Shown here: positions 15,853 to 16,830 of the stretch, one piece after another
How the letters are laid out: each line of letters begins with the position of its first letter
Numbering within the stretch: position 1 is the first letter of the stretch
Source: a virus
Taxonomy: Duplodnaviria > Heunggongvirae > Uroviricota > Caudoviricetes
DNA length: 17,970 nucleotides
IMG/VR virus record: IMGVR_UViG_2718218128_000004
Direction: 5' to 3' (one strand)
Made by a program: the position numbers and the translations under genes
The notes under the pieces: generated by a model
What the model was told of the DNA's origin: nothing
Databases searched by the model: none
Seen by the model: the letters and a program-made list of their open reading frames with translations, nothing else

Positions 15853-16830
15853 ATGACGCCCGACAATAAAAAATATGAAATGGAAGGTGACTTGGAATGG
15901 AGAGACTATTATGACATTTTAAATGACAGATCAAATAACCTTAATGAAAATGAACGTGCTTACCTTAGTGACTTGTTACGAGATGGGGACTTATATAATT
16001 TCAGAGATTATTACAGGAAACTCATTAAGAAGAAAAAAATGAATCAAAACAACAAAGAGGAAGTTTTTTTTGGTAGTGAACAGAATGAAGCATTAAATAA
16101 TCTACGGCAAGAGCAAAAAAAATATAGAGAACTAGCTGACTCCTATGCTAAACGTTTAGCTGATATTGAAGAGTATAGTTCTATATTGCACTTAAGAAAT
16201 GAGAACTTAGAAAATTTAGTTTCTGAGAAAGAAGCGCTTCTTGAACAATCGGTATCAAGAATTAAACAACTTGAAGCATCTAATAACGAATTACAAAGCC
16301 GAGTACAACAAGAGAGAATTGATGAAAAAATCCCCGGATATGTAGATAGCGTTAAGAGTGAATTAAGTTCAGATGATTTATATTTCATTAAAATGTCGCA
16401 AGTATGGGCTTTTGCTGGCTGTTTTTTTGGGGTTCTTGCTGTAGTTGCATCATTTTACACACTCTACGCCACCGTTGACTTTAATAATCTTAAAGGCTTT
16501 GAACTAGTATACATTTTTACTCGCGGATTAATTGGCATTTCTATCCTGTCATGGCTAGCATACATATGCCTCGGGAACTCTAAAAAATATACGCATGAAT
16601 CAATTCTGCGAAAGGATAGAAGACATGCATTAATGTTTGGGCAAGTATTTCTGCAAATTTACGGCTCTACATCAACAAAAGAGGATGCTGTATTAGTATT
16701 TAAAGACTGGAATATGTCAGGTAACTCCGCATTTTCTGACAAAACAGAACTTCCTCCGGGAATCCAATCTTTATGGGATTCAGCTAAGGAAAAAATAAAG
16801 CCAAGTGCACCTGACAAATCACCGGAGTAA
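15853..16830 (+). CDS. Hypothetical membrane protein (325 aa), coiled-coil N-terminal domain with two TM helices, co-transcribed with cI
   Basis: ATG 15853 with AAGGA 8 nt upstream, 11 nt after the cI stop; AT-rich; heptad-like acidic region (NENLENLVSEKEALLEQSVSRIKQLEASNNELQSRVQQERIDEK) then hydrophobic segments VWAFAGCFFGVLAVVASFYTLYATV and LVYIFTRGLIGISILSWLAYICLG. Confidence 0.65.
   Translation: MTPDNKKYEMEGDLEWRDYYDILNDRSNNLNENERAYLSDLLRDGDLYNFRDYYRKLIKKKKMNQNNKEEVFFGSEQNEALNNLRQEQKKYRELADSYAKRLADIEEYSSILHLRNENLENLVSEKEALLEQSVSRIKQLEASNNELQSRVQQERIDEKIPGYVDSVKSELSSDDLYFIKMSQVWAFAGCFFGVLAVVASFYTLYATVDFNNLKGFELVYIFTRGLIGISILSWLAYICLGNSKKYTHESILRKDRRHALMFGQVFLQIYGSTSTKEDAVLVFKDWNMSGNSAFSDKTELPPGIQSLWDSAKEKIKPSAPDKSPE

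What the first reader, a model, noticed from the sequence alone, without database searches (positions are those of the whole stretch)
15853..16830. AT-rich coiled-coil/2-TM protein expressed from the lysogenic cI-int transcript
This 325-aa ORF is inserted between cI and int, starts 11 nt after the cI stop and has its own RBS, so it should be made constitutively in the lysogen like lambda rexAB or sieB. As far as I recall, in 186 and P2 the repressor gene is immediately next to int, so this is extra cargo. It pairs a long acidic coiled-coil N-terminal domain with two TM helices and an about 85-aa C-terminal tail, and is a candidate single-gene superinfection-exclusion or abortive-infection protein of an undescribed family.
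Basis: partly seen in the sequence, partly recalled or inferred. Interest (0 to 1): 0.75.

Follow-up and report, generated by a model that had tools for sequence, protein, structure and literature searches.

The report
Prophage membrane protein beside the repressor
A real, well-conserved gene wedged between the repressor and integrase of a decayed P2/186-like prophage encodes a membrane protein whose conserved half is also found fused to bacterial immune adaptor domains elsewhere, making it a good but untested candidate for a phage-defence protein.

Summary
A 325-aa ORF (15853-16830) starts 11 nt after cI, has a Shine-Dalgarno sequence, is AT-rich, and has a helical N-half, two TM helices and an 84-aa tail. 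Phage 186 has cI abutting int, so the gene is cargo.

The site is already published as a P2-like hotspot. In E. coli prophages of this lineage it also holds DUF4041/SNIPE-associated, KAP NTPase, Panacea and YdcA genes.

The family (PHROG 2628, unknown function, always annotated hypothetical) lay in the cI-int slot in all 49 enterobacterial loci examined, directly after cI in 47.

New findings:
- The N-terminal ~145 aa are hypervariable and track the cI type.
- The C-terminal ~180 aa form a strongly conserved module (omega ~0.05).
- That module has 519 distant cluster representatives.
- In some of these the N-half is replaced by EAD11, TIR or MgtE_N domains (hhalign 99%).
- One EAD11 fusion sits beside a trypsin-like protease and a STAND-like NTPase.

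This supports an immune-effector role, most likely abortive infection through the membrane (confidence 0.45). Superinfection exclusion and a repressor-linked role remain open. No Pfam, PADLOC, NCBIfam or PDB match passed a cutoff, and fold searches were non-specific. Function is untested.

The parts
14858..14885 (+). Promoter-like site upstream of cI (candidate counterpart of 186 pL). It faces a stronger promoter-like site on the minus strand (14909 to 14881, candidate pR).
   Evidence: Consensus scan only, 9/12 and 10/12 matches. The layout resembles the convergent pR/pL annotated in 186. Not tested.
14897..15841 (+). CI repressor, 314 aa, with two tandem N-terminal HTH domains and one C-terminal domain.
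   Evidence: Pfam Phage_CI_repr x2 (E=2e-57) and Phage_CI_C (E=6e-25). RefSeq annotates it as 'phage repressor protein CI'.
15842..15852 (+). 11-nt cI-ORF spacer carrying the Shine-Dalgarno sequence AGGA (15842-15845).
   Evidence: Read directly from the sequence. The cI-to-member gap is 9-15 nt in 38 of 49 related loci.
15853..16287 (+). Hypervariable N-terminal half of the ORF (aa 1-145): three short helices, then the start of a long helix with a heptad pattern.
   Evidence: Alignment A1. AF2 helices H5-25, H32-43, H47-67 and H76 onward. 9-57% aa identity between alleles. It is the most divergent stretch of the whole cII-int region, 58-68% nt identity to the closest allele. It tracks the cI type.
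16288..16401 (+). Conserved cytoplasmic pre-TM helix of the module (aa 146-183), motif QQxRIDEKIPxYV...DD..F.
   Evidence: Invariant columns I156, I160, P161, Y163, V164, V167, D175, F178. It aligns with the EAD11- and TIR-fused relatives.
16402..16470 (+). TM helix 1 (aa ~184-206), continuous with the preceding cytoplasmic helix.
   Evidence: Kyte-Doolittle mean above 1.6. AF2 shows one continuous helix 76-205 with pLDDT 80-87 over aa 171-200 (72 over 201-210); the module-only model reaches up to 98.
16471..16506 (+). Short, variable loop (aa ~207-218), predicted to be periplasmic.
   Evidence: Alignments. Topology is inferred from the positive-inside rule: the flank after TM2 is rich in K and R. 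Inferred, not tested.
16507..16575 (+). TM helix 2 (aa ~219-241), with conserved F222, R224, G225, I229, L232, W234.
   Evidence: Hydropathy and alignment. AF2 helix 215-270.
16576..16830 (+). Conserved cytoplasmic C-terminal part of the module (aa 242-325) plus the stop codon. Motif: YTHESIxRKDRxHALxFGQxFLQIYG...VFKDWNMSG.SAFS..PP.
   Evidence: E249, H258, A259, G263, W286 and F294 are invariant across 35 diverse relatives; E249, H258, A259, G263 and W286 are also invariant across 44 full-length relatives, where F294 is >=90% conserved. dN/dS is about 0.05.
16893..16918 (+). Terminator-like hairpin (7-bp stem, 6-nt loop) plus a T6 run ending at the int ATG. It is the fixed right-hand boundary of the cargo slot.
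   Evidence: Terminator scan. dG -13.3 kcal/mol. An exact copy lies just 5' of int in 16 loci with different cargo, including phage vB_EcoM-813R9. Termination itself is not tested.
16918..17970 (+). Tyrosine integrase, 350 aa.
   Evidence: Pfam Int_N (E=5.5e-32) and Phage_integrase (E=7e-22). RefSeq annotates it as 'phage integrase', followed by rcdA on the host chromosome.

Best explanation
The gene is accessory cargo of the cI-int slot of a 186-like prophage. It is probably made in the lysogen together with CI, and most likely acts as a single-gene anti-phage membrane effector of the abortive-infection type.

**Shown**
- The protein has two parts.
- The N-terminal ~145 aa are helical, hypervariable and specific to each immunity (cI) type.
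- The C-terminal ~180 aa are a strongly conserved module. It consists of a cytoplasmic helix running straight into TM1, a short loop, and TM2 running into a cytoplasmic helical region with invariant E249, H258, G263 and W286.
- The same module occurs in hundreds of other bacterial protein clusters, always at the C-terminus.
- In some of these it sits behind EAD11 adaptor, TIR or MgtE_N domains.

**Inferred**
- Both termini are cytoplasmic.
- The module is the executing end: it self-associates in the inner membrane and collapses the membrane barrier or potential.
- The variable N-terminal helical or coiled-coil region holds the module in check. It releases or oligomerises it on contact with a component of an infecting phage. 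This is the role played in the relatives by EAD11-mediated recruitment to an activated NTPase.
- The infected cell dies or stalls before the intruder replicates, which protects the lysogen population.
For: **Position**
- The member lay in the cI-int slot in all 49 loci examined, from E. coli, Klebsiella, Yersinia, Serratia and Brenneria-type prophages. It followed cI directly in 47 of them.
- Phage 186 lacks it.
- In E. coli the same slot carries genes annotated DUF4041/SNIPE-associated, KAP NTPase and Panacea.
- Next to family members the slot also holds KAP NTPases, a reverse transcriptase, DUF4145 and Abi_alpha genes.
- The slot is a published defence hotspot (PMC9122126).

**Real, selected gene**
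- dN/dS is about 0.05 on the module.
- It is present in 148 of 5,426 complete E. coli genomes.
- It is intact in a prophage whose structural genes are pseudogenes.

**Module homology**
- A profile search gave 519 representatives at E<=1e-3 and 312 at E<=1e-10.
- EAD11 scored 43-83 bits against a cutoff of 26 in P0171, P0175, P0190, P0203 and P0220.
- TIR_2 scored 51 bits against a cutoff of 28 in P0215.
- hhalign gave 99% probability, E about 1e-18, over the whole module.
- P0220 lies next to a Trypsin_2 protease and a 963-aa AAA/TPR STAND-like NTPase.
- P0171 is followed by a second EAD11 protein.
- Domains fused to EADs are effector or signalling domains, and they also occur without EADs in simpler systems (PMC7159879; PMC8195603).

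**Layout**
- The protein is almost entirely cytoplasmic, with a 9-17 residue variable outer loop.
- The continuous helix from the coiled coil into TM1 could transmit a conformational change.
- The hypervariable N-half fits a recognition or regulatory role.
Against: - There is no experimental datum of any kind.
- No match to any PADLOC model, nor to Pfam or NCBIfam above cutoff.
- Fold searches were non-specific.
- dN/dS on the N-half is 0.2-0.3 against the closest allele, so there is no demonstrated positive selection. Fast drift of a coiled coil plus hitch-hiking with the divergent immunity region would look the same.
- A TIR fusion does not prove the module is the effector, because TIR could be the effector and the module only an anchor.
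- Only 6 of the 43 sampled distant relatives carry EAD11.
- The NTPase next to P0220 has no detectable EAD11, so EAD coupling is not shown at that locus.
- Constitutive expression of a lethal membrane effector needs tight control, and no control mechanism has been shown.
Confidence: 0.45

Rival explanations
1. Superinfection exclusion. The protein sits constitutively in the inner membrane of the lysogen and blocks DNA entry of incoming phages, as P22 SieA does, without killing the cell.
For: - It is an inner-membrane protein encoded next to the repressor and likely co-expressed with it.
- Experimentally characterised Sie proteins such as SieA are prophage-expressed inner-membrane proteins with highly divergent sequence types (PMC10883804).
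- From my own knowledge, lactococcal Sie2009 and S. thermophilus Ltp are encoded between repressor and integrase.
Against: - Only a 9-17 residue, poorly conserved loop is predicted to face the periplasm. The conserved residues are cytoplasmic or juxtamembrane, which is a poor fit for interfering with a periplasmic or membrane injection conduit.
- The module's relatives are fused to cytoplasmic immune adaptor and signalling domains (EAD11, TIR).
- No homology to any known Sie family in Pfam or PHROGs.
Confidence: 0.15
2. A function tied to the prophage's own repressor. The N-half is specific to each cI type because the protein works with its cognate CI or switch region. It might tune lysogeny or induction. 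It might instead act as a guard or addiction module that kills the cell when CI is inactivated by a hijacker such as a P4-like satellite or a heteroimmune anti-repressor.
For: - It follows cI directly in 47 of 49 loci, and other cargo is added only on the int side.
- Every pair of loci with cI >=90% identical has an N-half >=75% identical. In contrast, 80 of 111 pairs with >=95% identical int have N-halves below 40% identity.
- The N-half is even more divergent than cI.
Against: - Physical linkage to the most divergent region of the phage explains the co-variation without any functional tie.
- Phage 186 and many E. coli relatives do without the gene.
- Distant relatives occur far from any repressor.
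- No interaction evidence exists.
Confidence: 0.12
3. A host-fitness or membrane-physiology moron unrelated to phage defence, for example stress tolerance, envelope remodelling or a virulence-related function, carried in a slot that accepts any cargo.
For: - The slot also carries genes with no known defence link, such as YdcA-family proteins and many hypotheticals.
- Structural neighbours include membrane-remodelling hairpins (PspA, Vipp1, ESCRT-III), although non-specifically.
- Two relatives carry an MgtE_N domain, from a family of cytosolic Mg2+-sensing domains.
Against: - EAD11 and TIR fusions, and the STAND/trypsin neighbourhood of relatives, point to conflict systems.
- Co-resident slot cargo is dominated by defence-type genes.
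Confidence: 0.15

Closest known systems
SLATT (SMODS- and SLOG-associating 2TM effector) domains, predicted pore-forming effectors of nucleotide-signalling and GTPase conflict systems (Burroughs et al. 2015, as cited in PMC7159879)
   Same: - A two-TM helical hairpin with flanking cytoplasmic helices.
- It occurs as the C-terminal part of multi-domain immune proteins and as a stand-alone gene.
- Some relatives of the present module are fused to TIR.
- SLATT proteins appear among the sub-threshold structural hits in BFVD (ranks 5, 13 and 38; E 0.06-0.5).
   Different: - No SLATT or DUF4231 Pfam model matched the window protein at E<=1, or any of 44 family members at E<=0.01.
- The invariant motif E..(8)..HA...G / W-N is cytoplasmic and specific to this family.
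- The structural similarity is not significant.
- Membership is not established. The comparison is about how it may work.
EAD-coupled effector modules of NTPase-centred conflict systems (Kaur et al. 2020, PMC7159879; Kaur et al. 2021, PMC8195603)
   Same: - Homologues of the module carry one or two N-terminal EAD11 domains.
- One lies beside a trypsin-like protease and a STAND-like AAA/TPR NTPase.
- Another lies beside a second EAD11 protein.
- The papers state that EAD-linked effector domains recur without EADs in simpler systems.
   Different: - The window protein has no EAD. Its N-half is a family-specific, hypervariable helical region with no Pfam match.
- No NTPase partner is encoded in the E. 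coli slot.
- The NTPase at locus L054 has no detectable EAD11.
PdpSau of Staphylococcus aureus prophages (PMC10127798)
   Same: A single prophage accessory gene encoding a membrane-anchored, mostly cytoplasmic protein. On infection, membrane polarity and permeability change and the cell dies (abortive infection). This is the behaviour proposed here.
   Different: - No sequence relationship.
- PdpSau has one N-terminal membrane helix and is linked to the lysis genes, not to the repressor.
- It comes from a Gram-positive host.
P22 SieA and other prophage superinfection-exclusion membrane proteins (PMC10883804)
   Same: A prophage-expressed inner-membrane protein with several very divergent sequence types. 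Its position in the lysogeny region resembles that of lactococcal Sie2009 (my own knowledge).
   Different: - No homology.
- SieA blocks injection.
- The present protein exposes almost nothing to the periplasm, and its relatives are wired to cytoplasmic immune adaptors.
Known cargo of P2-like hotspots and the cI-int hotspot (Rousset et al. 2022, PMC9122126; iLund4u preprint 10.1101/2024.10.15.618418; 10.64898/2026.02.27.708500)
   Same: A variable slot flanked by conserved phage genes, with AT-rich cargo and known defence genes in the same slot.
   Different: In the text I searched, those studies describe the slot, not this family. The family has no PADLOC model and no name in any source.

Membership tests
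Cargo (moron) of the cI-int hotspot of P2/186-like prophages | Lies between conserved cI and int, and is absent from the reference phage. | tested here: met
   cI 14897-15841, ORF 15853-16830, int 16918-17970. In 186, cI and int abut.
Cargo (moron) of the cI-int hotspot of P2/186-like prophages | Closely related prophages carry different genes at the same site. | tested here: met
   With cII and int >90% identical, the slot holds DUF4041/SNIPE-associated, KAP NTPase, YdcA, Panacea, hypothetical or IS genes, or almost nothing. The cII-to-int span is 2.7-4.9 kb. Phages 4LV2017 and vB_EcoM-813R9 carry other genes there.
Cargo (moron) of the cI-int hotspot of P2/186-like prophages | Base composition differs from the phage backbone. 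| tested here: met
   34.9% GC against 48.6% for int.
Cargo (moron) of the cI-int hotspot of P2/186-like prophages | Expressed in the lysogen. | not testable with these tools
   Only inferred, from the 11-nt spacing after cI, the Shine-Dalgarno sequence, the promoter-like site upstream of cI and the terminator-like hairpin after the gene.
SLATT 2TM effector domain | Match to a SLATT or DUF4231 sequence profile. | tested here: not met
   No such Pfam hit for the window protein at E<=1, or for any of 44 members at E<=0.01. A profile-profile test against SLATT could not be run.
SLATT 2TM effector domain | Two-TM hairpin fold resembling SLATT structures. | tested here: inconclusive
   BFVD hits to SLATT-annotated proteins have E 0.06-0.5 and TM 0.23-0.39. 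AFDB was not available. No solved SLATT structure appeared in the PDB searches.
SLATT 2TM effector domain | Association with nucleotide-signalling enzymes (SMODS, SLOG, TIR). | tested here: inconclusive
   TIR_2 is fused to the module in P0215 (51 bits) and weakly in P0168. Nothing of the kind lies in the window or the enterobacterial loci.
EAD-coupled effector of NTPase conflict systems | The protein carries an EAD adaptor domain. | tested here: not met
   No EAD hit in the window protein. EAD11 is present only in distant relatives.
EAD-coupled effector of NTPase conflict systems | The domain fused to the EAD is homologous to the domain in question. | tested here: met
   hhalign of A2 against P0220 gave 99% probability, E=3e-18, over 164 columns covering the pre-TM helix, both TMs and the cytoplasmic motif. 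hmmsearch E-values were 1e-17 to 1e-22.
EAD-coupled effector of NTPase conflict systems | [quoted passage not shown] | tested here: inconclusive
   At L054 the adjacent STAND-like NTPase has no EAD11 by Pfam or BLASTP. At L059 a second EAD11 protein is adjacent.
Superinfection-exclusion proteins (SieA, Sie2009, Imm type) | Homology to a characterised Sie family. | tested here: not met
   No Pfam or annotated PHROG match. The only PHROG match is 2628, 'unknown function'.
Superinfection-exclusion proteins (SieA, Sie2009, Imm type) | Blocks DNA entry without killing the cell. | not testable with these tools
   Needs infection experiments.
Known anti-phage defence systems (PADLOC-DB 2.0) | Match to a model of a known or candidate defence protein. 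| tested here: not met
   Best hit is PRTase_III-A at E=0.059 and 11 bits, which is noise.

The most novel reading that the evidence does not exclude
The protein is an immunity-specific guard of the prophage's own repressor. Its hypervariable N-half, which tracks the cI type more tightly than anything else in the genome and is even more divergent than cI, would monitor the cognate CI or switch complex. When CI is inactivated from outside, for example by a P4-type satellite anti-repressor or a heteroimmune phage's anti-repressor, the conserved two-TM module would be unleashed and kill the cell. This would couple lysogenic immunity to abortive infection in a single gene.
Probability: 0.07. Interest if true: 0.85.

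Novelty: new variant of a known kind. Interest (0 to 1): 0.55.

Why it matters
If the prediction holds, three things follow.
1. A widespread membrane-effector module (519 cluster representatives at 50% identity) would gain a function and a name. It is currently absent from Pfam, PADLOC and NCBIfam. Many EAD11- and TIR-linked proteins in NTPase-based immune systems could then be annotated.
2. It would be a minimal, single-gene version of such a system. It is easy to study in E. coli, with natural allelic series of the variable N-half available to map what is recognised.
3. It would document a defence gene that travels with the immunity region of 186-like prophages and is kept intact even in a decayed prophage. 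That bears on why cryptic prophages persist.

If it turns out to be ordinary, it is simply one more hypothetical cargo gene in an already known hotspot.

Tried and rejected
- **Pfam, NCBIfam and PADLOC on the ORF.** Only sub-cutoff hits: DUF2207_C at 20.8 bits against a cutoff of 33, plus MakB, TolQ, crescentin and PRTase. I treat these as composition or coiled-coil noise. DUF2207_C recurs weakly in a few relatives, always below cutoff.
- **tblastn against 50,697 phage records.** No match, so no isolated phage in that collection carries the gene.
- **Foldseek against the PDB.** Best E=0.09, generic helical proteins.
- **Foldseek against BFVD.** Best E=1.2e-3, an uncharacterised protein.
- **AFDB library.** Unavailable.
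- **PDB sequence-profile search.** Nothing below E=0.26.
- **Search with the N-half alone.** Only fragments of the same protein, so no evidence that it is a portable domain.
- **Test for an EAD11 on the NTPase next to P0220.** Negative.
- **dN/dS for positive selection on the N-half.** Omega is 0.2-0.3 against the closest allele, and comparisons with other alleles are saturated. There is no evidence for positive selection.
- **Holin or lysis role.** Considered and dropped. The gene is in the lysogeny region, it is 325 aa, and it has large cytoplasmic domains.
- **'Part of the integration machinery'.** Rejected, because 186 and many E. coli relatives lack it.
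Full report
**1. The observation**

- **Upstream gene.** ORF 14897-15841 is a CI repressor with two Phage_CI_repr HTH domains and one Phage_CI_C domain.
- **Downstream gene.** ORF 16918-17970 is a tyrosine integrase.
- **Divergent genes.** An Apl/Cox-like gene (14593-14814) and a CII gene (14051-14614) are transcribed in the opposite direction.
- **Spacer.** The cI stop and the ORF start are 11 nt apart, and the spacer begins with AGGA, 7 nt before the ATG.
- **Composition.** The ORF is 34.9% GC, against 48.6% for int.
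- **Protein features.** Two hydrophobic segments lie at aa ~184-206 and ~219-241. The tail is 84 aa. A heptad pattern covers aa ~96-157. The part before TM1 has net charge -9.
- **Chance.** By my estimate, an open frame of this length in such AT-rich DNA has a chance of about 1e-11. With 112 homologous clusters and dN/dS of about 0.05 on the C-half, it is a real, selected gene.

**2. Where the window comes from**

The window is 100% identical to the E. coli strain S3 chromosome.

- The element lies between ybjL and rcdA.
- It is a decayed P2/186-like prophage. D, a tail gene, J and the portal gene are annotated as fragments.
- The replication and lysogeny genes and the cargo are intact.

**3. 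The slot**

- **Other 186-like phages.** Klebsiella phage 4LV2017 carries a 349-aa hypothetical gene there. Escherichia phage vB_EcoM-813R9 carries a 558-aa 'chromosome segregation ATPase'.
- **E. coli census.** I searched 5,426 complete E. coli genomes with the conserved flanks, and 1,328 genomes matched. In a sample spread over the ranking, prophages with >90% identical cII and int held a range of cargo. This included DUF4041/'SNIPE-associated' proteins, KAP-family NTPases, YdcA-family proteins, a Panacea-domain protein, hypotheticals, an IS element, or almost nothing. The cII-to-int span ranged from 2.7 to 4.9 kb.
- **Prior reports.** The site is not new.
  - Rousset et al. [quoted passage not shown] - A 2026 preprint places 8% of P2 defence systems between integrase and primase.
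- **Right-hand boundary.** A terminator-like hairpin at 16893-16912 plus a T6 run (dG -13.3 kcal/mol) ends at the int ATG. An exact copy lies just 5' of int in 16 loci, whatever the cargo. The likely lysogenic unit is therefore cI plus cargo, with int behind a terminator or attenuator. This is inferred, not tested.

**4. The family**

- **Database matches.** The protein matches PHROG 2628 ('unknown function') over its full length (E=1.4e-95). Nothing passes a cutoff in Pfam, NCBIfam or PADLOC.
- **Names.** All members found are called 'hypothetical protein'.
- **Prevalence.** The module is present in 148 of 5,426 complete E. coli genomes, as one chromosomal copy each. No isolated phage record carries it.
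- **Gene order.** In all 49 loci examined the order is cII, apl, then cI, family member, optional further cargo, int. The member directly follows cI in all but the two Brenneria-type loci (L010, L048), where a 160-aa gene intervenes.
- **Spacing.** The cI-to-member gap is 9-15 nt in 38 of the 49 loci.
- **Extra cargo.** Extra cargo is always on the int side. It includes KAP NTPases in L010/L048, L036, L044 and L051, a reverse transcriptase, and DUF4145 and ASCH proteins.

**5. Two halves with different histories**

| Region (window vs closest divergent allele, L013) | Nucleotide identity |
|---|---|
| cII/apl | 92-99% |
| cI | 71-86% |
| ORF N-half | 58-68% (the most divergent stretch) |
| ORF C-half | 83-90% |
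| int | 93-99% |

- **N-half.** The N-terminal ~145 aa are 9-57% identical between alleles. The C-terminal ~180 aa are 44-92% identical.
- **Selection against the closest allele.** The N-half has dN 0.33, dS 1.3 and omega about 0.25. The C-half has dN 0.04, dS 0.65 and omega about 0.05. The N-half is fast-evolving but shows no demonstrated positive selection. The different dS values point to a recombination breakpoint inside the gene.
- **Link to cI type.** Every pair of loci with cI >=90% identical has an N-half >=75% identical. In contrast, 80 of 111 pairs with >=95% identical int have N-halves below 40% identity.
- **Interpretation.** cI plus the N-half behave as one cassette. Physical linkage alone can explain this.

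**6. Structure**

- **Full-length AF2 model.** pLDDT is 74.6 and the fold is all-helical. There are three short N-terminal helices. One continuous helix (76-205) then runs from the coiled coil into TM1. After a short loop, helix 215-270 contains TM2 and continues into the cytoplasm, followed by two short helices.
- **Module-only model.** Built from a 35-sequence alignment that includes distant relatives, it reaches pLDDT 85.5 and pTM 0.70 with the same hairpin.
- **Topology.** The flank after TM2 is rich in K and R. I therefore infer that both termini are cytoplasmic and that only a 9-17 residue variable loop faces outward.
- **Fold and profile searches.**

| Search | Result |
|---|---|
| Foldseek vs PDB | best E=0.09 |
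| Foldseek vs BFVD | best E=1.2e-3, uncharacterised protein; SLATT-annotated proteins at E 0.06-0.5 |
| PDB profile search | nothing below E=0.26 |
| AFDB | unavailable |

**7. The key lead**

A profile of the module alone, searched against 1.84 billion cluster representatives, found 519 proteins at E<=1e-3 and 312 at E<=1e-10. The module is always C-terminal, behind N-terminal regions of varying length.

- **N-terminal domains of the distant relatives.**
  - Of 43 distant relatives scanned, 6 carry EAD11, 2 TIR_2 and 2 MgtE_N.
  - The individually confirmed scores exceed Pfam's cutoffs: EAD11 at 43-83 bits against 26 in five proteins, TIR_2 at 51 bits against 28 in P0215, and MgtE_N at 29.9 bits against 25.9 in P0129.
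- **Homology of the module.**
  - hhalign of the enterobacterial module against the EAD11-fused P0220 and the TIR-fused P0215 gives 99% probability. The E-value is about 1e-18 over the pre-TM helix, both TMs and the cytoplasmic motif.
  - E249, H258, A259, G263, W286 and F294 are invariant across the 35 diverse module sequences.
- **Neighbourhoods.**
  - P0220 lies directly after a Trypsin_2 protease and a 963-aa AAA_16/AAA_22/TPR STAND-like NTPase. That NTPase has no detectable EAD11.
  - P0171 is followed by a second EAD11 protein.
  - P0117, 31% identical to the window protein, lies between a CI remnant plus an Abi_alpha gene and an integrase.
- **What EADs imply.** According to Kaur et al. 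2020 and 2021, EADs are adaptors that recruit effector or signalling domains to NTPase cores. EAD-linked effector domains also occur without EADs in simpler systems.

**8. Mechanism**

The best-supported reading is a prophage-expressed, single-gene membrane effector of the abortive-infection type.

- The conserved module is the executing part in the inner membrane.
- The variable cytoplasmic N-half takes the place that EAD11 or TIR holds in the relatives. It regulates the module or senses the invader.

*Shown:* the architecture, conservation pattern, homology, fusions and genomic contexts. *Inferred:* expression in the lysogen, topology, oligomerisation, membrane damage and the trigger.

I give this reading 0.45. 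The rivals are:

| Rival | Confidence | Main point |
|---|---|---|
| Superinfection exclusion by blocking injection | 0.15 | Weakened by the near absence of periplasmic surface |
| A role tied to the cognate repressor | 0.12 | Suggested by the cI-N-half co-variation, which linkage also explains |
| A non-defence membrane function | 0.15 | The slot also carries genes with no known defence link |

A non-functional gene is very unlikely, given omega of about 0.05.

**9. Comparison with known systems**

- **SLATT.** The module works like a SLATT-type 2TM effector might. Membership is not supported: no SLATT or DUF4231 profile match for the window protein at E<=1 or for any of 44 members at E<=0.01, and only sub-threshold fold hits.
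- **EAD-coupled systems.** The module is homologous to the effector-side domain of EAD11 proteins, but the window protein has no EAD.
- **Functional analogues without homology.** PdpSau is a membrane-anchored abortive-infection protein of S. aureus prophages. P22 SieA is an inner-membrane injection block.

**10. Verdict**

- The slot is already known.
- The family is catalogued but has no function or name.
- The link between its conserved module and EAD11/TIR-fused proteins is, as far as my searches show, not described.
- Everything about function remains a prediction that simple E. coli experiments can test.

Noticed in passing
window 5400-9800: Two AT-rich islands (31-38% GC) lie between the portal remnant and replication gene A, which is the classical P2 defence hotspot. 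They hold seven ORFs: 5568-6233, 6233-6679 and 6680-7795 on the minus strand as an apparent operon; 7933-8268 and 8447-8758 on the minus strand; 8874-9248 and 9245-9703 on the plus strand. None has a Pfam or PADLOC hit at E<=1e-3. They are candidate unknown defence cargo.
   Followed up: partly
window 14897-15841: The CI repressor has two tandem N-terminal HTH (Phage_CI_repr) domains before a single C-terminal domain: 314 aa, against 192 aa in phage 186. The same doubled form occurs in Klebsiella phages such as 4LV2017. Both single- and double-HTH repressors accompany the membrane-protein family.
   Followed up: partly
window 2800-5500 (locus L001 8057-10705): The prophage is decayed. D, a tail gene, J and the portal gene are annotated as truncated pseudogenes. 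The lysogeny module, replication genes and all hotspot cargo are intact.
   Followed up: no
window 16893-16918; L003 5862-5884; 14 other loci: An exact copy of a terminator-like hairpin plus T-run sits immediately before the int start codon in prophages with quite different slot cargo. It may separate int expression from the cI-cargo transcript. This differs from phage 186, where the cI stop and the int start overlap.
   Followed up: partly
L010 6158-7678; L036 5752-7101; L044 5595-7103; L051 5566-7092: KAP-family P-loop NTPase genes recur directly downstream of the family member in four distinct non-E. coli locus types (plus L048, which has the same layout as L010). In E. coli the KAP gene occupies the slot without the family member. 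Whether the pairing is functional or coincidental is open.
   Followed up: no
L023 4111-5598 (minus strand), also L026: A 495-aa reverse transcriptase (RVT_1, E=5e-47) is inserted between the family member and int in some E. coli prophages. I did not determine whether it is a retron, a defence-associated RT or a group II intron.
   Followed up: no
L054 2550-8095: This is a three-gene array: a Trypsin_2 protease, a 963-aa AAA/TPR/SEC-C STAND-like NTPase, and the EAD11 plus 2-TM module protein P0220. The NTPase's first ~107 residues match no Pfam family and show no similarity to the neighbour's EAD11.
   Followed up: partly
L002 3945-4994 (Klebsiella phage 4LV2017): The 349-aa protein occupying the cI-int slot of this sequenced phage has no Pfam match at E<=1e-3. 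It is another uncharacterised slot cargo.
   Followed up: no
window 14858-14909: Overlapping promoter-like sites lie on opposite strands between apl and cI: plus strand 14858-14885, minus strand 14909 to 14881 (10/12 matches). The arrangement is reminiscent of the face-to-face pR/pL switch promoters of phage 186.
   Followed up: no
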